Source of the DNA: Eledone cirrhosa
Lineage: Eukaryota
Length of the DNA stretch: 64,000 nucleotides
Assembly (NCBI GenBank): GCA_964016885.1
Contig: OZ024743.1
Span: forward strand, 187,550,001-187,614,000
Reading direction: 5' to 3'
Positions 1,270-63,815 of the stretch are shown one piece after another. Both the position numbers and the translations under genes were made by a program. The first letter of the stretch is position 1; each line of letters opens with the position of its first letter. Under the pieces are notes generated by a model, which was not told the origin of the DNA, did no database searches, and was given only the letters and a program-made list of their open reading frames with translations.

Positions 1270-1800
1270 CTCCGTAGCGGAGATTCATTCGGTCTCCTAG
1301 TTAGAATTTAGTCTACGACTTCTGCTATACCATTTACGTGGTTTTGTCTTTGCGTGCTATTGTTCTCTACGCTCCACATATGACGTATTATCTTCGTTTT
1401 TTTCGTTCATCGCCAGAGAACGTCTCTATGCACCACCTAAGAGAACATTAGTCTACGACCTCTATTATACCATAAACGTGGTTCTGTCTTTGCGCGTAAT
1501 TGTTTTTTGACGTATTATATTCGTTTTTTCCCGTTCTTAGCCATCGAACGTTTCCACGAACCAAAGTATCGTCTTCCTGTCTTCCTCCGGTTGCAACGTT
1601 TTTTGAAATATCCAGTTCTGCGTTTACAGATTGACTTTGTTAGTTTCAGAAGATCCCGTTAAGGGTGAAAGCAGCGATTCTTTGCTTAAACTTTAATCTG
1701 TTATTTTAATAAATATTTGCTCTACGGTTCTTATATATTTGATATATATTTATCCTTATCGAGCCCTCTTTGGATTTTAGTCTTCAAATTTATTATTATT
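1270..1800 (+). mobile_element. Small non-autonomous element / Penelope-like terminal repeat with internal ~140-bp duplication and HHR-like motif
   Basis: 1308-1430 is duplicated at 1447-1555; sequence at 1645-1700 and 1755-1785 recurs at 54590-54700; followed by (TA)n. Confidence 0.5.
1642..1692 (+). ncRNA. Type I hammerhead-like motif, variant core CAGAAGA
   Basis: agttt-CAGAAGA-t ccc gttaa ggg t-GAAA-gca gcgattctt tgc-TT-aaact; stems I, II and III all pair. Confidence 0.55.
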
Positions 1801-18087: not shown

Positions 18088-18440
18088 GAGGCATATGGCT
18101 TAGTGGTTAGAGCATTTGGCTTGCAATCGAAAGGTTGTGAGTTCAATTCTCAGACCGGCTGATGTGTTGTTTCCTTGAGCAAGACACTTTATTTCACATT
18201 GCTCCAGTTTACTCAGCTGTAGGAATGAGATGATGGGGACTGAGGTCCCTATCATTCCACTGCAAAGTGGTCGTAGAGGTGCCACGGAAAAAAAAAGCAC
18301 CCAGCACTCACTGTAAATGAGGTTGGTGTTAGGAAGGGCATCCAGCTGTAGAAATCAAGCCAGAATCAGTTCCTATCCCACCCTTGCAAGCAGGGAAAAG
18401 CGGACGTAAAATGATGATGATGATGATGATGATGATGGTG
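18088..18440 (+). mobile_element. Full-length tRNA-derived SINE family A with RTE 3' tail
   Basis: A box TGGCTTAGTGG, B-box-like GAGTTCAATTC, core ccttgagcaagacactt; tail shared with the RTE 3'UTR at 31270-31455; (GAT)n end; partial head duplication at 18061-18086. Confidence 0.9.
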
Positions 18441-23029: not shown

Positions 23030-23588
23030 TCATCATCATCATCACTGTTTTATGTCCATTCTTCCACGCTAGCATGGGTTAGATGGGTTGTCCTGTTGTG
23101 GGCAATGCCAGGTTGGGTGACCTTGTCTTGCTCATATGGGAACTGATTTTGGCTTGATTTCTACAGCTGGATGTCCTTCCTAACTCCAACCTCATTTACA
23201 GTGAGTGGTAGGTGCTTTTTTACTGTGGTGCCTACATGGCCACTTTACAGTGTGGGCTGGGTGGTTTTTGTTGTGACACCTCCACGACCACTTTGCAGTG
23301 AGAGGGAATGTGGGCATATTGTCTATATGCTTCAGCTTCGGCTTGTACCCATGGGAAGTTGGATCTTCTGTATTACTGTGTGATGCCAAAGGTCATGGTC
23401 CTGTGACATTGCCTTTGAGACGTGCAATTGGGTAAAGTCAGATTTTATCACCTCATCCCAGGTCTTCTTAGGTCTCCCCACTCCAAGGCTTCCATCGATT
23501 TTTAGTGCTCTGCACCTGTTTATGTAGCTGTCATCCTTCATATGCATCACATGACAATACAAATGCAACCTCCTCTCCTGCACACAGC
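23030..23588 (-). mobile_element. RTE LINE 3' fragment
   Basis: QERRLHLYCHV...GRPKKTWDEVIK plus 3'UTR and (GAT)n tail; homologous to 30900-31455. Confidence 0.9.
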
Positions 23589-23653
23589 TGAGGATCCGCT
23601 AAGGTGAAACAATTGTTCTCGGTATGGTGAACTAACTGTTGTGTAACCACTTC
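23586..23653 (+). mobile_element. Fragment of Nematis-like Penelope terminal repeat containing an HHR core
   Basis: Near-identical to 49525-49592 (ctgaggatccgctaaggtgaaacaattgttctcgg); 5' arm of stem I replaced by RTE sequence. Confidence 0.8.
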
Positions 23654-23684
23654 TATATATATATATATGTGTGTGTGTGTGCAT

Positions 23685-25520
<1,836 letters not shown>

Positions 25521-25523
25521 ATA

Positions 25524-25559
<36 letters not shown>

Positions 25560-25565
25560 TGTATG

Positions 25566-25613
<48 letters not shown>

Positions 25614-26377: not shown

Positions 26378-29300
26378 ACGTGGAGAGGAGAATTCGCTAG
26401 AGTCCGCGTAGGCAAAAGTCAATGCTACAAATGTTTCTGGGTGGGAAATTACAATGGGATGGGAGGTGTAGGTATACTATTAGCTGACAAATGGGTTGAT
26501 AAGGTAATCTCAGTGAACAGGGTGAATGCAAGTATCATTAAACTCAGCTAGTCCTGAATAAAACGATTGCCACAATAGTATCAGCTTACGCACCTCAATC
26601 AGGGTTGCCAGACAAACTTAAGGGTAGGTTTTACGAGTCCTTAATGCACACTACTGCCCTAACAAACGACAATGACGTCCTAATCATTGCAGGAGATTTT
26701 AACGGACACATTGGTAAACACCATAACGGCTTCTATAGAGTCCATGGAGGCCACGGGTTTGCCAGAAGAAATGAAGAAGGCTTCTAGCTTCTGGAATTCT
26801 GCGATGCCAATGACATGTTGATATGTAACACAAACTTCATAAAACCTGACAGCCATCTGATCACCTATAGATCAGGGGAGCGTTTTAGTCAGATAGATTT
26901 TACTCTCATCAGAGGGCGTGATAGATGGACTGTTGTAAACACAAAAGCCTTACCTGGTGAGGAATGTAACTCCCAACATAGCTTAGTTGTTAGCAACCTC
27001 ACTGTTAAAACTAGACGAACTTGGAAACAGAAGGCAACCTGGAGAAGAATGATCTGGAAGCTGAAAGACCTCTAAGGCAGTAACAGATTTAAAGATATTC
27101 TACTCGACGCCTATGACAGTAAAGAAGAACAGATAGAGACATTCAATGTAGAAGAGCACTGGGAGTTCCTAAAAAATAACTTACTAAAGGCGGAGAAAGT
27201 CCATAGGGCAGGGGAGAGTGACTTGTTGGTGGAACAATAAGATAGATGAGGCAGTATAGGCTAAGAGACAGGCATGGAAAGAATGGAAGAATGGGGGTAG
27301 CAGGGTACATTACAGGAGGGAAGCTAGGCAACAAGAATACTTAGCTAGAAGGAAGCAGAGGATAGAAAATTCAAGCATGTTTGCAACGTGAGGACCAGAA
27401 ACAGGAGGTGTTCAAGATTGCGAGGCAGTGTGTCAGAGAGAATTGTGATGTCATTGGAGAGAAGTGTATCCGGAATGATAATGGTGAGCTTGCCCTCACA
27501 TGTGCTGAGAAGAAAGCTGCGTGGAAGAGCCATTATGAAAGATTACTAAACGAGGAGAATGCATGGGAAAAAGAGACCCTACCCCAAGTGGACCCTATAG
27601 AGGGGCCAGCAGTACAAGTCAGCAGCAGCGTAGTAAGTAAGGCAATCAAAGATGTGAAGAGGGGGAAGGCAACCGGTCCATCGGGTATAGCTGCCGAGAT
27701 GCTGAAGGCATCTGGGTCGGTAGGTCACACCATAACCACACAAATTGTTAACTGGGTAATACTAGAGGGTATCATACCAAAGGATTGGTGCAACAGCATC
27801 ATTGTCAACTGCTACAAAGGTAAAGGTGATGCACTAGATAGATGAAACTATAGAGGTATAAAGCTGATGGACCAGGCCATGAACGTAATGGAGAGAGTTA
27901 TAGCACAGTTGATTAGGGACCAGGTGAAACTAGATGAGATGCAATTTGGGTTTGTACCAGGAAAAGGCACAACTGATGCCCTCTTCCTTGTGAGGCAGTT
28001 ACAGGAAAAGTACCTAGCTAAAAGTAAGCCGCTCAACCTGGCCTTCGTCGATCTGTAAAAAGCCTTCAACAGAGTCCCCGATGCTATAATCTGGTGGACT
28101 CTTATAAAATTAGGAGTAGATGAATGGCTTGTAAAAGCTGTACAAGCCATGTATAGAGGAGCAGTCAGCAAAGTTAGGGTTAGCAATGACTATAGCGAGG
28201 AATTTAGCATACAGTTCCGTGTCCAACAGGGCTCTGTTCTTAGCCCTCTCCTGTTCATTATAGTTTTGCAGGCAATAATGGAAGAGTTTAATACCGGATG
28301 CTCATGGGAATTTCTATATGCGGATGATGTTGCAGTTATATTTGAATCCATAGTGGAGCTAGAGAAGAAATTCCAAACATGGAAGCAGGGACTAGAAAGA
28401 AAGGGTCTCAAATTCAACCTGACAAAGACTAAGATTCTTGTAAGTAGATGAGAAAACAGAACACAGATCACCTCAGGGAAATGGCCTTGCTCAGTATGTA
28501 GGAAAGGTGTAGGTAGGAACTCCATCCTCTGCCCCAAATGCAAACAATGGGTACACAAGAGATGTAGTGGGATCTCAGGAAGTTTAACTAAGAATGTAGG
28601 CTTCATATGTACCAGCTATGCTGGGACAGCAAGCAGCAAACGACCACAGGAAACAAGCACCACCAAAATCTGGGAGGGTTCTGTAGAAACAGTAGACAGC
28701 TTCTGCTACCTAGGTGACCGAATTAGCAGTGGAGGTGGGTGTTCGGAAAATACAATAACTAGGGTAAGTATGGGATGGAAGAAGTTCAGGGAGCTACTGC
28801 CACTGCTAGCTGCAAAAGGCTTTTGCCTCAAAATGAAAGGCAGACTGTATGATGCATGCATACGAACACCAATGCTACATGGTAGTGAGAACTGGGCGTT
28901 GTGTGTACAAGACTTGCATACATTAGAAAGAAACGAAGCTTGCATGCTCCGATGGATGTGTTATAGTAATATATGCGAACGGAAAAGCATAAACGAATTG
29001 AGAGAGAGACTGAGCTTAAGAGGAATCAAATGCTGTGTGCAGGAGAGGAGGTTACATTGGTATGGACATGTGATTGCGTATGTAGGATGACAGTTGCATA
29101 AAAAGGTGCAGAGCACCAGAAGTAGATGGAAGCCGTGGAATGGGGAGACCCAAGAAGACCTGGGATGAGGTTATAAAAGCCGACCGTACCCAATTGCACC
29201 TCTCAAGGGCAATGACACAAGAACGTGACCTCTGGCGTCACGCAGTAATACAGAAGACCCAACTTCCCACAGGAACAAGCCGAAGCTGAAGCATATAGAC

Positions 29301-29595
29301 AATATGCCCCCCCCCACCCCGACTGCAAAGTGGTCGTGGAGGTGCCACAGCAAAAAAGCACGCATCCCACACTGTAAAGTGGACGTGTAGGCACCACGGA
29401 AACTAAACACTCAGCACGCATTGTAAATGAGGTTTGTGTTAGGAAGGGCATCCAGCTGTAGAAATCAAGCCAGAATCAGTTCCTGAATGAGCAAGACAAG
29501 ATCAGCCGACTGGACACTGCCCACAACAGGACAACCCGTCTAACCCATGCTAGCGTGGAAGAACGGATGTAAAACAGTGAAGATGATGATGATGA
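26378..29595 (+). mobile_element. RTE-clade LINE, near full length, degraded (APE + RT)
   Basis: APE motifs GVGILL, SAYAPQ, IIAGDFNGHIG, SQIDF, SQHSLV; RT motifs QFGFVPGKGTTDA, QGSVLSPLLF, FLYADD; multiple stops; (GAT)n tail. Confidence 0.92.
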
Positions 29596-29616
29596 TAAGA
29601 TATATATATATATATC

Positions 29617-31455
29617 GTATCGTTAACCAGGTAATACTAGAGGGGGCCATACCAAAAGATTGGTGCAGTAGCATCATTGTCAACTGCTACAAAGGTAAAG
29701 GCGATGCACTAGATAGAGGAAACTATAGAGGTATAAAGTTGATGGACCAGGTCATGAAAGTAACAGAAAGAGTTATAGCACAGCTGATTAGGGACCGGGT
29801 GAATATAGACGAGATGCAATTTGGGTTTGTACCAGGGAAAGGCACCACTGATGCCCTCTTCCTTGTGAGGCAATTACAGGAAAAGTACCGAGCTAAAAGT
29901 AAGCCACTCTACTTGGCATTTGTCGACCTTGAGAAAGCCTTTGACAGAGTTCCACGTGCAGTAATCTGGTGGGCTCTTAGAAAACTAGGAGTAGATGAAT
30001 GGCTTGTGAAAGCGGTACAAGCCATGTATAGGGGAGCAGTCAGCAAAGTTAGGATTGGCAATGAGTATAGCGAGGAATTTAGCGTACAGGTTGGGGTCCA
30101 CCAGGGCTCTGTTCTTAGCCCTCTCCTGTTCATCATAGTCCTGCAGGCAATAACGGAGGAGTTTAAGACCGGATGCCCATGGGAACTCCTGTATGCTGAT
30201 GACCTCGCACTCATAGCTGAATCTATGGTAGAACTAGAGAATAAATTCCAAACCTGGAAGCAGGGACTAGAGAGAAAGGGCCTCAAAGTCAACATGACAA
30301 AGACTAAGGTCCTTATAAGTAGACGAGAAAACAGAACCCAGATCCCCTCAGGGAAATGGCCTTGCTCAGTATGTAGGAAAGGTGTAGGTAGGAACTCCAT
30401 TCTCTGCCCCAAATGCAAACAATGGGTACACAAGAGATGTAGCGGGATCTCAGGAAGCTTAATTAAGAATGTAGGATTCACATGCAGCAGCTGTGCTGAA
30501 ACAGCAAGCAAACAGCCACAGGAAACAAGTACCACCAATCTCTGGAGGGCCCTGTAGAAACAGTAGACAGCTTCTGCTACCTAGGTGACCGAATTAGCAA
30601 CGGAGGTGGGTGCTCAGAAAGTACAATAACTAGGGTAAGAACGGGATGGAAGAAGTTTAGGGAACTACTACCACTGCTAGCTGCAAAAGGCTTCTCCCTC
30701 AGAATGAAAGGCAGACTGTATGATGCGTGTATCCGAACAGCAATGTTGCATGGTAGTGAGACCTGGGCGCTGAAGGTGGAAGACTTACGTAGATTAGAGA
30801 GAAACGAAGCCTGCATACTCCGATGGATGTGTAACAGTAATATACGTGAACGACAAAGCATAAAGGAATTGAGAGAGAGACTGAGCACAAGAGGAATCAA
30901 ATGCTGCGTGCAGGAGAGGCGGTTACGCTGGTATGGACATGTGATGCGTATGAAGGATGACAGCTGCATAAAAAGGTGCAGAGCACTAGAAGTTGATGGA
31001 AACCGCGGAGTGGGGAGACCCAAGATGACTTGGGATGAGGTGATAAAAGCCGACCTTACCCAACTACACCTCTCAAAGTCAATGACACACGACCGTGACT
31101 TCTGGCGTCACGCAGTAATACAGGGTACCCGACCTCCCATGGGTACATGCTGAAGCATATAAACAATATGCCCCCCCCTCCCCCCCCCGCAAGGTGGTCG
31201 TGGAGGTGCCACGGCAAAAAAGCACCCAGCCCACACTGTAAAGTGGACGTGTAGGCGCCACGAAAAAGCACCCAGCACTCACTGTAAATGAGGTTGGTGT
31301 TAGGAAGGGCATCCAGCTGTAGAAATCAAGCCAGATCAGTTCCTGTATGAGCAAGGCATGGTCAGCCAACCAGACACTGCCCACAACAGGACAACCCGTC
31401 TAACCCATGCTAGCGTGGAAGAACGGACGTAAAACGGTGATGATGATGATGATGA
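29617..31455 (+). mobile_element. Younger 5'-truncated RTE LINE (RT + PHD insert + thumb + 3'UTR)
   Basis: Open frame to 30557 with LAFVDLEKAFDRV, HQGSVLSPLLF, LLYADDLAL; 1-nt deletion near 30545 relative to copy 1; continues FCYLGD...RRLRWYGHV...GRPKMTW to 31153. Confidence 0.95.
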
Positions 31456-31464
31456 TATATATAT

Positions 31465-31828
31465 ATATACACATTCATGTATACATTGCTATTTCAGAGC
31501 ACCAATCCTAATACTTAATTTTTGCTAGACCAGAAATCGCTCTGTGTAATCAGCTCCTGATTATTACTGGAATTCTATAAGAATGCAGCTTCTATACTTT
31601 TCAGCGGAATCAGTGAGTGTGTGGCTCTGAGGAAAGCCAACCAGCTTGAAACAGACAGTCAGCTTCTCTCCCTTCTTTTGCCAAAAAGAAGTAAGTGACA
31701 TAGTCACTACTTTAAAACTGATAGTGTATGGTCTTGTAAATGTTTTTAGTTAAACATACAGTATATTGCTAAATATACTATACATACATTCATGTACACA
31801 TCACTATTTCAGAGCACCAATCCATATA
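31465..31828 (+). mobile_element. ~315-bp HHR-containing monomer with terminal direct repeat (retrozyme-like or Penelope pLTR-derived)
   Basis: cattcatgta..ca..ctatttcagagcaccaatcc occurs twice (atttcagagc at 31491 and 31806, period 315); internal HHR; between (TA)n tracts. Confidence 0.65.
31623..31664 (+). ncRNA. Type I minimal hammerhead ribozyme
   Basis: ggct-CTGAGGA-aagc caacca gctt-GAAA-c agaca g-TC-agct; canonical core; GUC site after 31660. Confidence 0.75.
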
Positions 31829-39896: not shown

Positions 39897-40339
39897 ATGT
39901 TTTGTAATTTTTGTAGAATACATTTTTCTATTATTTTCTTTATTACTTTCTATATTTAGATATTCCAAATAAAATTAAACAACATTTAATGCAATATCTA
40001 AATACCTTTTAAATCTTTTATTTTAAAAAAAATGGACGTAATGATAGATGCCAATCAGTGCCTTATAAATGGAAGTAGAAACTAGGGTTAAGGTCAAGTG
40101 AATAGTAGTGTATATATATATACATATATATATAGTTATATATATATATATTAGAGAAGACGGGGGCCTAGCAGCTGTGCTTTTGTTGTTTCAATAGCTA
40201 ATTCCAGGCCTCGAAGTAGCTGTTGAAACAACAAGTGCTCTACCATTGGGCTCTGACTCACTAATATAGTTACAGTTCCTATCCCAAGTATCAAGTACTC
40301 TACTTAATAATGGTCTTACTAGTTTAAAACTGTTAAAAT

Positions 40340-40819
40340 CCTGATATATATATATATTTCGGCTCCCTCAAGAGGTGAGCTTATTAAGGCGCGTGTGTTT
40401 GACTGTTATTTCTAACCAATACACTCACACCACTTTTGACTTACGGCACACGAGGTGATAAATTCCTTTTTCTGTGTGAACGTTAGTACTAGGAGTTTGT
40501 CGCATTTAATCAGATTCTCTCGCTGATGATGCCCGTGGATTATCTGTTACAAACACACTCAGGGTGAAACAGATTATCCCTAATCTGTCCGAGAGATATA
40601 ATAGTTATTGAGGCGGTTTGTATAATATAATTTTATTTTATTTTATCATTCTGTCTGCTTCATGGTTAAATATTTCAAACAAATGTGGTTCTTCAACCCT
40701 CGTAATATTAGACACACGATTTACTGTGTTTCTTACTACATATATATTATTATAATGCTCAGTATTTATACTTGGAGCTTATTGATTACAGGGTTTCAGT
40801 ATGAGTTATTAGCTCTAAC

Positions 40820-40822
<3 letters not shown>
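40340..40822 (+). mobile_element. ~480-bp non-coding element carrying an intact hammerhead ribozyme, between (TA)n tracts
   Basis: Unique, more GC-rich block bounded by TA repeats; contains the HHR at 40516-40596. Confidence 0.6.
40516..40596 (+). ncRNA. Type I hammerhead ribozyme
   Basis: tctctcg-CTGATGA-t-gccc(loop)gggt-GAAA-cagatta tccc taatctg-TC-cgagaga; 7-bp stems I and III; GUC site after 40589. Confidence 0.88.
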
Positions 40823-40882
<60 letters not shown>

Positions 40883-40969: not shown

Positions 40970-41544
40970 ATTTATATATATATGTATATATATATATATA
41001 TAATTGTACAAGAGTGTTGTTTATCTTAGTTGTTACGTAGTAACTTCCTGATGATAAGCAGGTTCTAGTGATCCAAAGCCCTACACATCAGTAATTTATC
41101 CCACATAGGTGCATCTTAACTACAATTATATATATATTTGTATATTGTTTATTAAGGCTAAATAGTGAGTCTTATTACTCTGGAGTTTCTTGTCTGATGA
41201 CCTTGTGATAAGCAGGTGAAACTCTATTCTGACCAGACTCATCATATATTTATATATGATTATTAATGTAAACAGACATTGGTTGTATTGAATTATTGCA
41301 ACGAAGCGATGAGGGAATATGAAGTTCAAAGAAAAATCGAAAAATGAGAAAATCTGACGTTTGAGTTTCCCATTTTTCCATTTTTCTATGAATTATTAAT
41401 GTATTTTTTTCTTTTATTGAATGAAAAATAAGATTTTCTTCTTCAGGCCATCAAGCAAAAATAAAAAAAATAAAAATTATAATTGAAAGAAGGCATCATA
41501 TCTTGGAAACCCTTTTAAATATCCACAAAAACATTATTTTTAAT

Positions 41545-44084: not shown

Positions 44085-47000
44085 TTGGTAAACGGAAAAG
44101 AAAATGCTGACAAACTGTTCACAGTGAAAAATAGTTTAATTAGGAATAAGTGAAAATTAGTCATAGTATTGGTTAGTATTCAGTTTTGGTTTTAAGTTTT
44201 ACCGGTTGCGCATTTCTAATGCTTTTCAAAAATAATTTTGAGATAGAACGCCCGTGATGTTTACTCTAATCTGATTAGTTTTGGAAATTCTACCTGTTTT
44301 ATGTGAAAAAAGTGGCTCCAGAAGTATTAAAATAAGTTTCGCGCCAATTTGTGTTGCAAAAATTCTTGTGGTCAAAACAATTTTGATTGGTCGGTAGAGG
44401 TCATGTGAATGTTAAAAATTGATTTTGCGCCAAATGTAGGTTTGTGTCGGTTGATTGAGAAGTCACTGAAAAATAAGTCTTTCAAAACAAATATGTGTGT
44501 GTGTGTAGTAGTAGTAGTAAAGAGGTTCGTTGTTGTGATAATGGTCAGCAGAGACGTGTGTGCGAACCGCAGCCTGTTGACAGTTCAAATGCCTATTAAG
44601 ACAAGTATGTGTGTGTGTGTGTGTGTGTAGCAGAGTAATTCGTGGTAGAGGGATGGTCAGTAGGAATGTGTCTGTAAGTGTGTGGGGATATTTTAACATG
44701 TTAAAAGATATTTTTCAGCTCTTGTCTTATACGGAGAAGTGTGTGTGTGTGTGTGTGTGTGTATATGTCTCTTTGTATGTTAATGTACGCATGTGTATGT
44801 GTGTGTGTATATATGTGTGTGTGTGTGTGTGCATATATGTGTGTGTGTGTGTGTGAGAATGTGTGTGGGTGGGCCAGTATTTTTGTGATACTGGTAAAAT
44901 GGTGTACATTATTCGATATTTTCAGTAAAAACGATTCTCTCAATAGAACATCAAAAACCTTAATAATAAAAGGTGTGAAATGATATATAGTATTGGCATA
45001 ATACCAAGGTGTGTGTGAGTGTCCAGATTGTACGTACTGCAAGGGGAATCCATTCGGCCTTGCCGTATTGGAATACTTGTGTACAAATATGTATGTGCCC
45101 ATCAGTGTGCAATGCATGTGTGCGTTTATGTATGTGTGTGTGTCGGCACGTTTATATCCATAGACATCAAAAGGTATGCAAATTTGTGTATATTTGTGTT
45201 GCACCATAGAACATGTGTGTTTATGTATGTCATTGTGTTTATATGTGGATAGAGATGTATGCTGATGTAGGTATGTATGTTGACGTGTGTATGTTGTGGG
45301 TTCGTCTTAGGGAGAAGTGTTTAGATAGGGTCCGTATTTGTTAATAAAGTGAGATTCCTTGCTGATGCGCTGGGTGTGGGTGGCATTATCTTTAAATTTG
45401 TAGAAGGGAAAGATTCTGAAGTTGGGATGATTTTGGGCGGCACAGGTATCAATGTGTTCACTCAGTGGTATTTTCCTGTATTCCCGTATTTTAATTTGGG
45501 ATCTATGGACAGTCATGCGTTGGCGGAGGCTGTTTTTGGTCTGGCCTATGTATTGTTCTCGACAACCTGAGCAAGTTAATACATATATTAGATTTTCTGA
45601 TGCGCATGTGAAATTGTGTTTTACTATAAAACGTTGTCCTTTTTTGAAATAGAATTCCGAACCCTCTATTAGGTTGATGCATATGCCACAGTTGGGTCTA
45701 TCACATTTTTTACTGTGGGTTTCGTTGTTGTGGTTGGCAGTACTTTGGCATGTGTTAGGATGTTTTCATTGACTTAGATTGTCTTTTGCTCTTTATGATA
45801 TCGTGTGTTCGTAGGATTTGGTTCATTCTATGGTCCTTTTTCAACACAGGGATGTTCTGGAGGATGGTGTCAAAGGCCTCATTGTTGAGGGGGTTGTGTG
45901 TGGAGAAGTATGGAAGAGCTTTTAGTTTCGGTTGATTTACTTTAGGGTGTCTCAGGTCCTGGGTACTAAGTTTTAGGGCACGTTGAATTCCATTGTCAAT
46001 TAGTGATGCAGGGTAGTCCCTGCCTATGAGTGTGTCCTTTAGTTCTTGTAGCCGTAAGTAGCAGGTGTTTTTATTGGAGATTATAGTACAGATTCTCTTG
46101 GCTAAGTTGTAGGTAATATTAATTTTAACGTGTCTAGGGTGACAAGAGTTGAAAGGAAGATATTGCTTGGAGTCTGTGGGCTTGTAGTATGTCTGTTTCT
46201 ATTTTTTTGTTATGGATCTTAATGAGAATGTTGAGGAAGGGGAGTTGTTGATGGCTGTATTCCATCGTGAAGTTAATATTTGTGTTGAGCCCATTTATAA
46301 GGGTGTGAAATTTTTTAAGTTTCTCGATGTTTTCGTGCCAAAGGATGAAGCAGTCATCTAGATATCGCTTCCAGTTCCTTTCTATGTGTAAGTGGAGAGT
46401 GTTTCCAAATTTGTTTAGGACTTTAGTGTAGAGGGGGATTTCCAGGTATCCCATGACTAGGTTGGCATAAGTGGAGGCTGTCTTCGTTCTCATAGCGGTC
46501 CCAGATTTCTGCCTGTAGGGTTTGTTATTGAAAACGAAGTAATTGTTCTCCAAGATAAATTTGAGTCCCTCTATCACGAATTCTTTTTTGATGCGTTGTG
46601 GGAGTTCATTGTGGTAATTATCCAGCCAGAATTGGATAGCTTCTATTCCTAGGTGGTGGTGGGATGGAGTATAGGTTGACTCTATCGAACGTCACTAGTA
46701 AGGTTTGTTCAGAAAGGGGCATATTAGGGACGTGATTAAGCATATCTAGGTCGTCCCTTATATAGCTTTTGATGTGTTTGAGAAAAGGCTTGAGAAGCGT
46801 ATCAATGAAGTTGCTAAGGCGGTGGGTTTCGCAAGAGGGGCCTGCTATTATAGGTCTTAATTTGAGATCATTGGGTGAGGGGACATTGATGACTATGTCT
46901 GCGGCTTCCTTGCATGCCTTACTTATTAATTCACTTTTATGTACTTTAGGGATACCGTAGAAAAGGCTGGATTAACTTGTGAAGTCTGGGATGAAGCTGA

Positions 47001-48529
47001 ATTCCTTGTTAGTGAGTCCTTCTTTGTATTGGTTGATCAGAGTTTTTAGGTTTCTCATAATTTTCTGTTGATTGTAGTGTTCAGCCTTTTCGTAGTATGT
47101 TTCGTTTTCCAAAGTGGAGAGCGCTAAGTTGATATAGAATTCTGTCTCCATTAGGACTACTGTACTCCCTTTATCAGCCTCTTTAATTGTAATGGTTCTG
47201 TCGGTTTTTAATCTATTTAATTCTTCCCATTCTTTCTTGTTGAGGTTTGGCTTGTGTTTTTGTCTGTGCAAGTGTTGGTAAGGGAAGTTTGTGATGTGTT
47301 CACAGAATTCGTCCAGGATTTTATTTCTACCTTTTGATGGGCTGTAATTGCTTCTATTTCTGGCTAATGATTCATCCTCATTGTACTGGTCGAATAGTTC
47401 TTCACTGAGTCGTAACTTTCTACAGAAGTCTGTGATGTCTTCCTTCATTTCATAGTAGTTAGGATAGTAGTTAGGACGTAGTGGGGTCGGTGTGAATTTA
47501 AGACCTTTGGAGAGTAAGTTGATAAGGTTGGGTGTTGGTTCTGCACTAGTTAGATTGTTAATTTTTATTACTCTCGGTTTCTCCTCCCTGTCTTGTGTTA
47601 TTTTGTTTGCCTGTATCTTGGTGCTGTGTATAAAAAATGGTTGGGGTAGAGGGGTTGTCTGCTGATGTTAAGTGGTCTCCTGTGTTTGTTATATTCCTTG
47701 TTGTTGTAAAATGTGGTTCGGGTTCGTGGTTGTAGATTGAATGGGGTCTTCCTGTATTGCGAGTATGGATGTGTGTTTCTATGTGCCATGTTGGATTGTG
47801 GTGTTATAGGTGGCCTACGTTGTTGGTTGTATCGTGTGGTGTGGGTTTGTTGTGTATTGTGGAAGTGAGAGTTGAGAAAATGGAAATTACCTTGCTGTCC
47901 CCTTGAAGCGGGGAAGTTGTTACATCTATCATGGGGGTGGTATCTTTTCCCTATGTTTGACGATGATGCATCCGCGTAGTAGTTGAGTGATTTGGTATGG
48001 TGTCTCCTTGAAGGGGGAAAGTTGTAAATGTCATTCTGGGGGAGATGATTTCTAGGGTTTGTGTTCCTTCTTATGGGAGCGAGGTTGGGAAGTTCATCTT
48101 CAGTGTGGTGCTTCCTTCTTCGTTTGTTAGTGACTGGGGGGTTTGCGAAGTTGTTGTGCGGTTCGGTTATGGGTTTTCTTATTTTTATGAACGGGTTATT
48201 GGAGGTGTAATCCGTTTGAAAAGTCGATTCATAGTGTAGGAACCAAGCGGCACTTTTTTCCCAGCGTTGAAGGGATTTCAGTTCTTCTCTGTTGCAGTCC
48301 CCTTTCCATAATTTAGAGATCTTCTCTACCTTGGGGCCTTCAGTTTTACTGTTGATTTCCAGGAGGATCTCTTCACCGATGGTTTTAATTTTTTCCTCAT
48401 TTGTCTGGGCCCTCAATTTAAGAAGTTCAATTTCTGTCTTCATTTTTTCTAATGCCATTCTTTCCCTAAGGTGTCTTTAAGGTTCGGGTTCATTTGGAAT
48501 GGACTTTATTTGTATTTTACGGGGGAGAG

Positions 48530-48530
<1 letters not shown>
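44085..48530 (-). mobile_element. Neptune-like Penelope retroelement, degraded (N-terminal extension, RT, Cys linker, GIY-YIG, ~1.2-kb 3' region)
   Basis: IKEADKGSTVV, FYGIPKVHK, RPIIAGP, YRQKSGTAM, WKRYLDDCFILW; linker CDRPNCGIC; GIY-YIG ending at 45307; frameshifted; (TA)n on both sides. Confidence 0.92.
44196..44232 (-). ncRNA. Minimal hammerhead-like motif (U3-A8, GCAA variant)
   Basis: TTGAAAA-gcatt ag aaatgc-GCAA-ccgg-TA-aaa; homologue of 24103-24140. Confidence 0.55.
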
Positions 48531-48589
<59 letters not shown>

Positions 48590-48591
<2 letters not shown>

Positions 48592-49592
48592 GTAGAACAC
48601 TGGAAGGTAATATCCGTAGTAGTAGACCACTCAGTCCATAGGACGAGTTAGGTAGAAGTGGTTACACAACAGTTAGTTCACCATACCGAGATCAATTGTT
48701 TCATCTTAGCGGAACCTCAGCTCGTAATGGACATGGTTATACGGAACAGGAAGGAGAACCGTAAGAATGCGCAAGCGCAGAAACGATCACTTCACACAAG
48801 CAATACTAAATTGCGTGCGATTGCAAAAGTCCGAAAGTTTCTGGTTTATAAGAAAATTAGGATGTTGTTGTAATTCAATCCGGAGCTTTGTAGTTATGTA
48901 AAAGGTTTTCTAGACGTGTGGACAACGTGTGAAGAATTCATTTCTCGTGTTTCGGCAATCATTATTGCGTAATCTCTTTAGAATATTTATTCGTTCATCA
49001 ATACATAGTCCACACGACGGATTGCCCCTTGGGTATGACGCAGGGCCGATTTAAGGAAAGCTTCCTGAACCACCAATCGACCTTTATGTACCCGGACAGA
49101 CGTTCATCCACGAAACTCGCGAGCCACATATGGTCCCTCAAGGACTCATGTATAGACTACTCTATTCAATGGAAAGCCATCAATAATTCCAAGTCATACG
49201 CAAGGGGCAATCCGTCGTGTGGACATGTATTGGTGAACGAATAAATATTCTAAAGAGATTACGCAATAGTGATTGCCTAAACACGAGAAATGAATTCTTC
49301 ACACGTTGTCCACACGTCTGGAAACACCTCTTACATAACTACAAAGCTCCAGATTGAATTACAACATCCTAATTTTCTTATCAACCAGAAACTTTCGGAC
49401 TTTCGCAGTATTCTCCCTTACACCTCTCGCACGCAATTTAGTATTGCCTGTGTGAAGTGATCGTTTCTGCGCATGCGCGTTCATATGATTCTACTTCCTG
49501 TTCCATATAACCATGTCCATTATGAGCTGAGGATCCGCTAAGGTGAAACAATTGTTCTCGGTATGGTGAACTAACTGTTGTGTAACCACTTC
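48590..49592 (+). mobile_element. Nematis-like Penelope 3' end with inverted terminal repeat (palindromic insertion)
   Basis: 48655-49031 is the reverse complement of 49200-49592; centre encodes GMTQGRFK..NHQSTF..STKLASHIWSLK..IQWK..CGLCIDE..LNTRNE..RCPH, stop at 49357. Confidence 0.9.
49517..49566 (+). ncRNA. Minimal type I hammerhead with palindromic stem III
   Basis: ccattatgag-CTGAGGA-tcc gctaa ggt-GAAA-caattg-TT-ctcggtatgg; stem II is weak; mutated antisense copy at ~48681-48730. Confidence 0.7.
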
Positions 49593-49694
<102 letters not shown>

Positions 49695-54886: not shown

Positions 54887-54971
54887 CATATATATTATAT
54901 TATATATACTATATATATATATACATACATATATATTATATATATGTATGTATATATATATATATATATAT

Positions 54972-55114
54972 ATAGAAGTAGCTCCACAATAGTTAGTTCA
55001 CCATATCGAGGACATTTCTTCTCTGTATGGTGAACTAACTGTTGTGGAACTACTTCTACCAAACTCGTCCCATGGACTGAGTGCTCTACTACTAACCCAC
55101 CAGTATTCTACTAT

Positions 55115-57569: not shown

Positions 57570-60500
57570 GATGTTCCAAAATAGAACATTGCTCAGAAAA
57601 TCATATCTGTCATCTATGTACAGAACCAGAGAACTCCTTCTGAAATCGATGGGTCGAATGTGGCAAATGTCGTGTTTCTGTTTGCCTTCAATGTGCCACA
57701 ACGTTCGAAAGATCCCGTGTCAGAAAAAGAGACACCCTACTTCTATGATGGATGGACTCTGGGAAATGGTCCAGCTAACAAATTGATCCTTTCAGTGCCT
57801 GGCCTGTATGTTTGTCTCTACCATTGCTGTTGAACAACAACAACAAAAAACCGAAGAACGTGTCTTCCTCTACCATTGTTCCTGAACAACAGCAAAAACC
57901 CAAAACGAGAAAACCAACGACCGTAGCTTCTGCTACTACCCCTGTTGAAGGACTTCATCAACAACAGCAACCCATGTCTTCCTCCCTCGTTACTTTTCAA
58001 CAACAACAACCGACGACTGTTGAAGAAGAACAACAAAAATTGACCGTCAATACGGAGTTTGAGGGAATACGGCAAATGATTTCCGCTTTAAGCCGAGAAA
58101 TAGCGGGAATAAAATCAAGTGTTCGTGCAGAACCTCACAATGAGGGATCTTACTGAAGTGCCTTGTTAAAAAATCTCTGCGTACCTCTTGCCGAATCTAG
58201 ACGCATTGAGAATGCCACTGAATCTGTAAACCACGAAGTGATTGCCATTGGTGTTCCAGAAGACATAGTTGATCTTCAGGCATTTGCTGCCAGTTTATCC
58301 AAAGACTTGGGTTGTGCTCCCCCGAAGGGTGCTCTACGCCTTGGCCGACCAGGTCCGAAACCCAGGCTAATTAGACTGTCCTTTTCGAACTCAACTGAGA
58401 CACGTTCATATCTTTTGGCCTCTGATAAAGCTAGGCATGAAAGCCGATTGCCTTCCGAACACGACCTGGTCTTCCACCTGATGTCCGCCCAAAGATGCGT
58501 GCTGCTGCTTCCTTAAACCGCAGCTCGGCAGAACATGAAAGCTTCAGCCTACGTGATGATGGGCAGATATGGAAATTTATTAAGGCTGGGGAAACATGGA
58601 AAAGAGATGACAGCTGGTCTGAAAACACTGTACCCACAACAACTGACAATAAAAAAACTGAAAAAACTCTGGGAAAGTAAATCAGAACAACCTGCCATCC
58701 CCTGCACATAATCATAGACTGGAATCAAGGTACAAATTTTTGTCCTTGAATGCACATAGTCTATGCAATAAGATTCATCTTTTTGACTCCTACAATCACG
58801 GAAACATGGGCAGATTCCTTACTCTGTGATGGGGTTTTCAGCATAACTGGCTACAACTTGTTTCGTAAAGACCACATTAATCGTCCTGTTGGTGGTGTAA
58901 TGGTCTACATTCGGTCAATTTTTTGGGTAATTCCTTGTGTTGATTTGAACCAATCACAGCAGAAAGTATTTTTCTGCGATATACGTATGACCATGACAAC
59001 ACTGCTACTTGGAGTCGTTTACCGTCCCCCAAATTACTATCAGGACACTCAACTCTGTGATATCCTCAGAGTTGCTGCCAGGAAAACAGCCACTTATGTT
59101 TTTATTGCAGGGAAACCTTTCGTTGGCCGCCAAGTGCAAATGACTTCCTTGAGCTAGTACTGGACTCGAACTGGTCCCAAGTAGTCACCTCCTCAACAAG
59201 AGGTGACAACACTTTGGACCTACTCTTCACCACTACTCCTGAAACGGTTATTAGTGTTACTACTGAGGAACCTTTAGATGACTCTGATCATGCTATGATC
59301 ATCTCAATCTATCCCTCATGGGCAGTAACAAAAACCACAACCATCTCCAAACTGCTCACTTTGACTGGAATAAAGCAGACTGGAACTGTTACTGGACAGA
59401 GCTGCAACGTCCAAACTGGCTTGAGTTCTACGACTCTGGAGATGTCAACACTGTACTCCAGAACATCCTGAGCTCAATATGGACAGCATGTGCAGCATCG
59501 GTGCCACGTAAGCAGAAAAAACATCCCAAAAGGGCAATTTAGGAGACTGCAGCAGTCCGTCTTACCAGAAAAGAACGTCATAATGCTGAACGTGAGTACA
59601 AACTGCTTAAATCAGACATCAATAGGAAAAAGCGAAATAAATCATCCAACCATCTCAAACAGGTGACAAAAAAGGCAGTGCTTCAATTTGAGCAGCACAT
59701 AGCAACCAGCGCTGACAGTAAAGTGTTCTGGAAGTATGTTCACTCAAAGCAGAGGCCTCACTCTCCAGTTGGTCCTTTTCATAATCCCCACACAAGCCAG
59801 GTTACTGACGACCCCAAGGAATGCGCAGAGCTCATTGCTGAATGCTATACAGGCATTTTCACTATTGAAGACCAGAGTGTACCGTCTCCACCAACTCTGA
59901 CATCGGATTCTATAACAACTATGGAATTTACACCTTCAATGCTGCGACGTCACCTTAAAAATAAACGCAACTATGCTTCCTGGTCTTGATGGTATTACGT
60001 ACCTGCTTCTTAAACGTGGTGGGTACTTCCTTCTGCACCAGCTATCACGGTTCTTCCAATTCTGTCTGAACAACGGTGCTACTCCAGAACACTGGAAACC
60101 TGCCAGTGTCATTCCTCTGTTCAAAAGGGTGACTGCACATCACCTATGAACTATCGTCCAGTAAGTCTTACTAGCTGCATTGCCAAACTGATGGAATCCT
60201 GTGTCAGAGAAACACTTCGGAACTTCTGGAGCTCTCACAGTCTTATACGGCCCTCGCAATTTGAATTTATCCTTAACTCCAGCTGCTGTGATCAACTTAT
60301 CGAGTTTCTTGAAGACATCCCCCGGATCACTGATGGCGGCTCATGGATGAATGTTGTTTACCTTGACTTTGCTAAAGCTTTCAATTCTGTGCCACACAAA
60401 AGACTTATAGCAAAACTCTCAGCAATGGGTGTGAAGGATGATCTTTTTAACTGGATGAAATTTTTCATTCTCAGTCGAAGAGAGGTAGTCAATGTTCTAG

Positions 60501-61580
60501 GACAGCATCCCTCACCATATGAGATGAAATCTGGTGTACCACAGGGATCTGTTCTTGGCCCCCTTTTGTTTGTGGCATATATTAATGACATAGATGCCAA
60601 CTTAAAGAATGCCACAGTACTGAAATATGCAGATGACATCAAGCTGTACCTTAAGATAAAAAGCACCGATCCTGGATACTATAGATCTTGCCTGCAATCT
60701 GACCTGGACACAATGCAACAATAGATCACAGACTGGCAACTCAAGCTAACTGTGGACAAGTGTACCACCATGCATTTTGGGAGTAAAAACCTAGCGTCCA
60801 CATATTCCCTCCACAACACTAATATCAAGAAGTGTTCTTTGGACATTACGGTCAGCAGCGATTTGCGTTGGACAAAGCATGTCTCTAAGATTGTCAAGAA
60901 GGCCGAGGGTGTCTTGGCATCACTCAGCAAGACCTTTGTTAGCTACTCTCCAGCCATCTATTTAAAGCTGTATACAGCTATGGTACGACCACACTTGGAA
61001 TTTGCATCATTAGTCTGGAACCCCTATCTTGCTCAGAACATTGACCTCCTGGAAACTGTTCAGAGACTTGCAACCAAGCGCATATCCTCCATCAGACACC
61101 TACCATACTCTGAACACCTTGCTTCTCTGGGCATGGATTCATTGAAGCTCCGACGTCTAACATTGGACTTGGTAAACACCCACAAAATTACTAACCATCT
61201 TGCCAACAACAACCCTGAGTACCTTTTTTATTTCCATGTATCTAACACACGTGGGCATGCCCACAAATTCAGAAAACAACACAGCTCCCATGACTTTCGG
61301 AAACATTTTTTCACGCTCAGAGTTGCTGAAGCATAGAACAAACTACCTGCATCAGTTATTAGCTGTCGAGACACAGCATCCTTTAAAACCTCCATGCTTC
61401 CTGAGATTCGCTAACACTACACCTAATATTACCCCTCCATACACACGCACACATGTATATCATGACTCATACACTATTCACTTCCCTGACATTTGTATAT
61501 CATTCTATGTATTATACATGCACCTTTGACGAGTTGTAGTGCACTTGAGCACTGTACACAATAATTTCATTATTATTATA
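57570..61580 (+). mobile_element. CR1-clade LINE, near full length, degraded (Cys-rich ORF1; APE-RT ORF2)
   Basis: ORF1 CHLC..WVECGKC..CLQC; APE ITETW, GGVMVY, GVVYRPP, LDLLF, SDH; RT NYRPVSLTSCIAKLME, YLDFAKAF, SGVPQGSVLGPLLF, YADDIKL, VRPHLEFAS.VWNP; 3' hairpin and (ATT)n tail. Confidence 0.92.
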
Positions 61581-63435: not shown

Positions 63436-63815
63436 AAGGGTAAAGACCCCCTTCGGTCATGAATGACCATGGGATTTGCACCTAGAAAGTTTTCCTCCGA
63501 GGCACAAGTCCTGGCAAGGTTGTTTTGTGGAAGACCAGTAGTCGCCCCTGGATACCAGTCTCCCCTCTCCACGCCACCGATGAGGTCCAAGGGAAAGGCA
63601 ATGGCCGATACAGCTTAGCACCAATGACGTCGCAACTCATTTCTACAGCTGAGTAAACTGGAGCAACGTGAAATAAAGTGTCTTGCTCAAGGAAACAACA
63701 CATCACCCAGTCCGAGAATTGAACTCACAACCTTTCGATTGCAAGTCCAATGCTCTAACTAAGCGCATTGGGCTTGCACTAAGCCATTGGACTTGCACTA
63801 AGCCTTGCGCCTTCA
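63436..63815 (-). mobile_element. SINE family D (family-A head and core, third tail type)
   Basis: 63640-63760 is the reverse complement of the family A head and core; distinct tail ending ...ggggtctttaccc; short tandem duplications in the A-box region. Confidence 0.85.

What the first reader, a model, noticed from the sequence alone, without database searches (positions are those of the whole stretch)
40340..40822. Intact, non-minimal type I hammerhead with stable stem III and a large loop II
Stems I and III are perfect 7-bp helices, there is an extra U after CUGAUGA, the site is GUC, and loop II is ~27 nt. Unlike minimal PLE hammerheads it should fold as a monomer. Loop II contains ggattat, which could pair with the taatc segments or with the stem III region and may allow a switch. 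It has no coding parent in this window, making it the best candidate for an active ribozyme here.
Basis: partly seen in the sequence, partly recalled or inferred. Interest (0 to 1): 0.75.

Follow-up and report, generated by a model that had tools for sequence, protein, structure and literature searches.

The report
Hammerhead braced by a long helix
This is a slightly decayed copy of a protein-free jumping repeat that carries a predicted self-cutting hammerhead RNA, in which an upstream strand is predicted to pair with one loop over an unusually long stretch that four related repeat families have kept with different letters; cutting has not been tested.

Summary
The type I hammerhead motif is in the sequence as described (stem I 7 bp, extra U, stem II 4 bp, loop II 27 nt, stem III 7-8 bp, predicted cut after 40589), though Rfam misses it. 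It lies in a 474-nt non-coding repeat (40357-40826) with several hundred copies. The copies show Penelope-type partial tandems, inverted 5' pieces, two fixed 3' ends and (TA)n targets; no coding parent was found. Three sister families share the fold. In all four, the strand just upstream of stem I is complementary to loop II over 17-21 predicted pairs, with compensatory changes. Published hammerhead pseudoknots I read about are 4-6 bp. This copy is not the best candidate for activity: it has G10.1-U11.1 where 70 of 75 copies have G-C, it has lost one pair of the long helix, and it is predicted to misfold. Three insertions start exactly at the cut site (about 0.6 expected, P about 0.02). The scan noted similar pseudoknotted Penelope-type hammerheads before, in this and other genomes. 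Verdict: new variant of a known kind.

The parts
40357..40826 (+). Full-length monomer (474-nt unit) of a non-coding, Penelope-type dispersed repeat (family A), set in (TA)n on both sides
   Evidence: 1904 and 1515 first-look candidates in the own genome, 40 scored each; head-to-tail junction and ends mapped; no ORF tied to it
40493..40511 (+). 5' strand of the long helix P0, predicted to pair with loop II (8 + 3 + 5 bp in the family majority; the pair at 40494 is broken in this copy)
40516..40522 (+). Hammerhead stem I, 5' strand
   Evidence: sequence; 4 of 7 pairs change on both sides in alignment A1
40523..40530 (+). Catalytic core CUGAUGA plus extra U between A9 and G10.1
   Evidence: family B has the compensated U3-A8 core without the extra base
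40531..40565 (+). Stem II (4 bp) and 27-nt loop II; 40538-40556 is the 3' strand of P0; 40565 is U in this copy and C in the family
40566..40589 (+). GAAA, stem III hairpin and GUC; predicted cut after 40589
   Evidence: pair table; insertions that start at 40590
40590..40596 (+). Hammerhead stem I, 3' strand
40745..40756 (+). First preferred 3' end of inserted copies (inferred inner start of reverse transcription)
   Evidence: 45 of 100 copies end here
40757..40830 (+). About 70-nt optional tail and second preferred 3' end
   Evidence: 44 of 100 copies end at 40828-40830

Best explanation
The locus is a full-length but slightly decayed copy of a 474-nt protein-free repeat that is likely copied by a Penelope-like element's enzymes and that carries a type I hammerhead motif, predicted to be braced by a long helix between its upstream flank and loop II. 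Inferred working, for the family: the flank-loop II helix (P0) forms first during transcription; it keeps loop II from mispairing and holds the short stem II near stem I, in place of the usual loop-loop contact. The RNA would then cut after the GUC, but slowly or with re-joining, because nearly all inserted copies read through the cut site. A Penelope-type reverse transcriptase/endonuclease would nick (TA)n DNA, start at one of two sites about 70 nt apart and copy tandem or circular RNA, giving 5'-truncated, partial-tandem and inverted insertions. This copy has since lost G10.1-C11.1 (a C-to-T change at a CpG) and one P0 pair, and likely cuts poorly. Shown: motif, copy architecture, complementarity in four families, the two changes. 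Inferred: folding, cleavage, helper element, template form.
For: Architecture, in 100 copies chosen only by an exact 25-mer at the cut site (the first 100 listed of 171): 58 are 5'-truncated inside the unit, 40 reach the unit start and 35 of these run on into the tail of a previous unit; 89 end at one of two places. Inverted 5' pieces and (TA)n flanks. These match the traits given for Penelope-like elements in PMC8557442 (passages) and the two-start 'tail' in PMC11167929 (main text parts 1-2). Structure: alignment A1 (15 family A + 18 family B rows) 93% of cells paired, 9 of 24 pairs changed on both sides, slid controls 30-42%. Family B alone: P0 18 pairs, 85.8% paired, 6 pairs changed on both sides, covariation score reached by 1 of 500 shuffles. 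Flank-loop II duplex in the four family majorities -18.4, -24.0, -16.9, -15.5 kcal/mol, reached by 3, 1, 2 and 5 of 1000 shuffles; in family A the adjacent flank is the best partner of loop II in the whole unit. Cleavage hint: 3 independent insertions start exactly at 40590 among 183 exact matches, 0.55-0.61 expected, P about 0.02. Decay of this copy: G-C at 10.1-11.1 in 70 of 75 copies and T at 40494 in 74 of 75; hammerhead fold probability 0.001 against 0.25 for the majority over 40510-40600.
Against: No cleavage assay. No autonomous parent found: none in 182 loci, and two neighbouring Penelope-like elements checked were unrelated. The folding program cannot model P0 together with stems I and II; with flanks added, the nested hammerhead fold drops to 0.064 even for the majority and to 0.04 for stems I and II in the circular unit. 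Most double changes in A1 are one event between two families. Families C and D are too diverged for a pair-by-pair alignment, so there the evidence is complementarity, not counted covariation. The cut-site excess rests on 3 events, two of which I had seen before the count, and all 3 sit at inverted junctions. A straight 19-nt helix strand spans about 51 A, which is tight for the 3- and 5-nt linkers of family A, so the whole helix may not coexist with stem II. In PMC11167929 the hammerhead was not needed for insertion in vitro, and in the 2026 preprint 8 of 9 retrozyme dimers did not cleave.
Confidence: 0.62

Rival explanations
1. The long helix is a brake or timer, not a brace: at full length it excludes stem II and keeps the RNA uncut until a protein (for example the Penelope enzyme) unzips its far half.
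For: P0 is 17-21 predicted pairs against 4-6 in the pseudoknots of PMC3088659 and PMC11300833; stem II is only 2-4 bp; geometry is tight; about 98 in 100 copies read through the cut site; the anole Penelope hammerhead cut only with its protein (PMC11167929).
Against: P0 forms before the 3' strand of stem II is made, so a pure brake would leave little chance to cut; the near half of P0 sits where activating pseudoknots sit, and in family C it abuts stem I directly; linkers of 8-11 nt in total do not rule out coexistence.
Confidence: 0.22
2. The unit is the isolated pseudo-LTR of an autonomous Penelope-like element, amplified by 5' truncation, and not a self-standing non-autonomous repeat.
For: Same ends, tail and inversions as autonomous elements; retrozymes derive from pseudo-LTRs (preprint 10.64898/2026.07.22.740005).
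Against: Where copies run past the unit start they enter the tail of another unit (35 of 40), never a shared ORF; no ORF tied to any of four families in 182 loci. An origin from a pseudo-LTR remains likely.
Confidence: 0.1
3. The motif is a fossil: hammerhead and helix are inherited but no longer cut in any current copy or matter for copying.
For: Nearly all insertions read through the site; copies differ from the majority by a median 3.7%, so the burst is not fresh; only 31 of 75 copies are intact in core, stems and P0.
Against: Core, three stems and P0 are kept with different letters across families only about 65-70% alike, including the compensated U3-A8 core; insertions start at the predicted cut.
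Confidence: 0.06

Closest known systems
Metazoan non-LTR retrozymes (Cervera and de la Pena 2020, PMC7229834, parts 2-3 of 6 read; Li, Clavereau and Pollet 2026 preprint 10.64898/2026.07.22.740005, parts 1-3 of 5 read)
   Same: Non-coding unit of a few hundred bases, one type I hammerhead per unit, head-to-tail copies, low GC, tie to Penelope-like elements; the circular unit is predicted to be well paired (z -3.0).
   Different: Mostly dispersed monomers and partial tandems, not long arrays; 7-8 bp stem III in family A instead of 1-2 bp; 27-32 nt loop II with a long Watson-Crick partner instead of the usual loop-loop contact; circular RNA not shown here.
Hammerheads of Penelope-like elements (Cervera and de la Pena 2014, PMC4209133, parts 1-2 of 4 read; Frangieh et al. 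2024, PMC11167929, parts 1-2 of 4 read)
   Same: Extra base between A9 and G10.1, U3-A8 core variant (family B), position upstream of two 3' ends, AT-rich targets, tandem and inverted insertions. Large helix III is reported there for fungal and protist elements.
   Different: Not minimal: a full stem III is present, so no dimer is needed in principle (4 of 58 copies have a shorter palindromic stem III); tail about 70 nt, not 30-40; no ORF.
Pseudoknotted hammerheads (Perreault et al. 2011, PMC3088659, passages; Zhan et al. 2024, PMC11300833, part 1 of 6)
   Same: A base-paired contact between the stem I side and the stem II side replaces loop-loop docking, with a very short stem II; reported for all three types and for about 40% of representatives.
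   Different: The pseudoknots named in the passages I read are 4-6 bp; here 17-21 predicted pairs, about two helical turns, with internal mismatches, in an animal mobile repeat.
Type-SGC non-circularly permuted hammerheads (Eckert et al. 2023, PMC10085705, passages)
   Same: Extra helix joining the stem I and stem II sides.
   Different: This motif keeps the ordinary type I strand order.

Membership tests
Type I hammerhead ribozyme | Core C3 U4 G5 A6 N7 G8 A9, G12 A13 A14 A15, U16 H17 | tested here: met
   core intact in 61 of 75 copies
Type I hammerhead ribozyme | Three stems around the core, stem I open | tested here: met
Type I hammerhead ribozyme | G10.1-C11.1 pair | tested here: not met
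   G-U in this copy; G-C in 70 of 75 family copies and 50 of 58. Met for the family, not for this copy.
Type I hammerhead ribozyme | Self-cleavage after H17 | not testable with these tools
   only an indirect hint: 3 insertions start at the site, P about 0.02
Rfam hammerhead families | Score above a family threshold | tested here: not met
Minimal Penelope hammerhead (dimer type) | Helix III absent or a short palindrome | tested here: not met
   7-8 bp hairpin here; palindromic short form in 4 of 58 copies
Non-LTR retrozyme | Non-coding unit with a type I hammerhead, in tandem copies | tested here: met
   474-nt unit, head-to-tail junctions, loci with two hammerhead-bearing units such as L027 and L121; this copy itself is a monomer
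Non-LTR retrozyme | Expressed as linear and circular unit-length RNA | not testable with these tools
   no RNA holder listed
Penelope-like element (autonomous) | ORF for reverse transcriptase and GIY-YIG endonuclease | tested here: not met
Penelope-like element (insertion pattern) | 5' truncation, partial tandems, inverted 5' copies, optional tail, microsatellite targets | tested here: met
Pseudoknotted hammerhead | Base pairing between loop II and the stem I side, kept by compensating changes | tested here: met
Pseudoknotted hammerhead | The pairing speeds cleavage | not testable with these tools
   needs disruption and rescue mutants

The most novel reading that the evidence does not exclude
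A natural regulated hammerhead: a two-turn helix between the upstream flank and loop II acts as a built-in timer that holds the ribozyme off until the Penelope protein unzips its far half, leaving the near half as the activating pseudoknot. This would tie RNA cutting to capture by the helper element and explain why nearly all insertions read through the cut site.
Probability: 0.22. Interest if true: 0.72.

Novelty: new variant of a known kind. Interest (0 to 1): 0.43.

Why it matters
What hammerheads do in Penelope-like elements and retrozymes is still open. These four families offer a monomer-competent ribozyme with a plain Watson-Crick control helix, so disruption-and-rescue tests are easy, and hundreds of natural variants are on hand. 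A 17-21 pair pseudoknot would be well beyond the 4-6 pairs in the papers I read. The motif escapes Rfam, so counts of animal hammerheads likely miss this type. For this locus the practical point is to test a family-typical copy, not the window copy.

Tried and rejected
Rfam at two thresholds: no hammerhead. Loop II-stem III switch: present in family A only, so rejected as a conserved device; it is the predicted misfold of this copy. Search for a coding parent: tblastn with the window's Penelope protein pieces and an ORF scan over 182 loci; the element upstream in L107 is only an insertion target; the elements beside L152 and L044 carry an ordinary minimal hammerhead; the RNA model found nothing of this type in them. 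A genome-wide search with the RNA model was not available, so further families and a parent may be missed. Expression: no RNA holder listed; the three contig sets laid are one sample and may be the window's own source. One badly chosen pattern found nothing, and one pair count was out of register (41% paired; corrected). Rows left out: family B, 18 of 30 loci used (11 lacked the 5' part, 1 had a deletion); family A, 15 of 55 rows hand-picked for A1. Lunse et al. (PMC5785218) is not held, and supplements of the papers were not read; either may show a similar long helix. Paper searches returned no listing that describes one, which is weak evidence that it is not in print. The sequence look-ups in earlier findings were blank.

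Full report
Observation. The window is AT-rich animal DNA from a 3.0-Gb assembly. A strict scan gives this one hit in the window and 1 hit in total in 150 shuffled windows. Rfam reports no hammerhead at either threshold.

The carrier. The stretch is one copy of a dispersed repeat. DNA searches of the own genome gave 1904 and 1515 first-look candidates, 40 scored each, and an exact 25-mer at the cut site occurs 171 + 12 times; several hundred hammerhead-spanning copies is my estimate from these. The unit is 474 nt (40357-40830 including the AT junction). I fetched the first 100 listed of the 171 matches. Of these, 58 are 5'-truncated inside the unit, 42 reach its first bases, and 35 of the 40 that reach the exact start run on into the tail of a previous unit; 45 end at 40745-40756, 44 at 40828-40830 and 11 elsewhere. 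Inverted 5' pieces and (TA)n flanks are common. These are the traits described for Penelope-like elements: partial tandems, inverted 5' copies, an optional tail and (TA)n bias (PMC8557442, passages), with the tail lying between two start sites of reverse transcription (PMC11167929, parts 1-2). No ORF was tied to the unit in 182 loci, and the neighbouring Penelope-like elements I checked are unrelated. It is therefore best read as a non-autonomous, retrozyme-like repeat (PMC7229834, parts 2-3; preprint 10.64898/2026.07.22.740005, parts 1-3). The helper element is inferred, not found.

Sister families. A 70% match in one flank led to family B (508 candidates), and an RNA model run over 53 held sources led to families C and D (1804 and 618 candidates). 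All have the type I order, stem I of 7-8 bp, stem II of 2-4 bp, loop II of 27-32 nt, a stem III hairpin and GUC. Family B has the compensated U3-A8 core, known from Schistosoma elements (PMC4209133). In alignment A1 (15 A and 18 B rows) 93% of cells pair and 9 of 24 pairs change on both sides; slid controls give 30-42%. Most of those double changes are one event between the two families.

The long helix (P0). In family A the flank 40493-40511 is complementary to loop II 40538-40556 in three blocks of 8, 3 and 5 pairs; 55 of 75 spanning copies keep all 16. The flank-loop II duplex is -18.4, -24.0, -16.9 and -15.5 kcal/mol in the majorities of A to D (17-21 predicted pairs), reached by 3, 1, 2 and 5 of 1000 shuffles, and it dominates the predicted fold of the part transcribed up to the end of loop II in all four. 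Within family B alone (18 rows) its 18 pairs are 85.8% paired and 6 change on both sides. In family A the adjacent flank is the best partner for loop II in the whole unit. Base-paired contacts between the stem I and stem II sides are a known way to speed hammerheads, but the examples in the passages I read are 4-6 bp (PMC3088659; PMC11300833).

This copy. It differs from the family majority at 14 positions, two of them in positions that matter: 40565 C to T, at a CpG, turns G10.1-C11.1 into G-U (G-C in 50 of 58 and 70 of 75 copies, overlapping sets), and 40494 T to A breaks a P0 pair (T in 74 of 75). Contigs of one public sample show the same majority letters (may be the window's own source). 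G10.1-C11.1 is called highly conserved in PMC4209133; that a G-U there slows cleavage is recalled, not read here. Over 40510-40600 the hammerhead is the minimum-energy fold of the majority (ensemble share 0.25) but not of this copy (0.001), which prefers the loop II-stem III mispairing; its P0 duplex is -14.0 kcal/mol, reached by 53 of 1000 shuffles. With flanks added, the nested hammerhead share falls for the majority too (0.064), because the program must choose between P0 and stems I and II.

Does the family cut? Of 12 matches without C17, 4 segments from 3 insertions begin exactly at 40590, 3 are internal deletions at short repeats and 5 are C-to-T changes. At the measured truncation rate of 0.36-0.41% per base, 0.55-0.61 such starts are expected (P about 0.02). 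One more copy starts one base earlier with a chance C (L236). This is a hint only: few events, two seen before the count, all at inverted junctions, and earlier notes of this scan suggested the test. About 98 in 100 copies read through the site, so templates were mostly uncut or re-joined RNA.

Mechanism. Most likely (0.62) P0 forms first, shields loop II and braces the short stem II against stem I, and the repeat is copied by a Penelope-type enzyme from tandem or circular RNA. The main rival (0.22) is that full-length P0 is a brake: a straight 19-nt helix strand spans about 51 A, tight for family A's linkers of 3 and 5 nt, and the anole Penelope hammerhead cut only with its protein. The two are separable by deleting the far half of P0.

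Earlier notes. The scan already holds notes on pseudoknotted Penelope-type hammerheads in this genome (one with a U3-A8 core, possibly my family B; a sequence look-up did not confirm that) and on 7-bp loop II-flank pairings in other genomes.

Verdict. Observation confirmed; interpretation partly supported. A new variant of a known kind, interest 0.43.

Noticed in passing
window 44700-49600 (- strand): Broken Penelope-like element (GIY-YIG hit) with an inverted pseudo-LTR pair at about 48655-49592 and a minimal hammerhead with palindromic stem III (about 48680-48716 on -, 49527 on +); further pieces at 23586-23661, 25162-25600 and 54967-55094.
   Followed up: partly
window 31615-31672 (+); L036 about 1340-1390 (-): Another short type I hammerhead family (stem I 4 bp, stem II 4 bp, stem III about 2 bp, GUC); a relative sits in the (TA) tail of a family A copy in L036.
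   Followed up: no
window 40160-40340 and 41030-41250: The repeat is flanked by other repeats: on the left a palindromic hairpin followed by hammerhead-like boxes in the order GAAA first, which recalls the scrambled hammerhead families in earlier notes; on the right two CUGAUGA boxes at 41048 and 41194 that do not close a type I fold.
   Followed up: no
L010, L020, L027 (two copies): 4 of 58 family A copies lack 6-7 nt of loop III, leaving a perfect 14-nt palindrome that could pair as a dimer.
   Followed up: partly
L032 1643-1765 (-): Single family A copy with a compensating C-G to G-C swap in stem I.
   Followed up: partly
L158-L182 (family D): Many copies read CCGAUGA at the core (U4 to C), others CUGAUGA.
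   Followed up: no
L245, L253, L279, L300, L304 and the window copy (40357): 5 of 100 sampled copies, and the window copy, begin exactly at the unit start without a preceding tail, which may mark a transcription start or an AT microhomology.
   Followed up: no
flanks of L005, L007, L009, L011, L035, L042, L056, L067, L070, L083, L096, L029, L131: Several further hammerhead families with AU-rich stem I and short palindromic stem III turned up in random flanks; the genome is dense in them.
   Followed up: no
window 27366-31153 (+), 58750-61336 (+), 18096-18153 (+), 63704-63773 (-): Two LINE-type reverse transcriptase regions (RVT_1 hits, one with a PHD finger) and two tRNA-like matches, likely SINE heads.
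   Followed up: no
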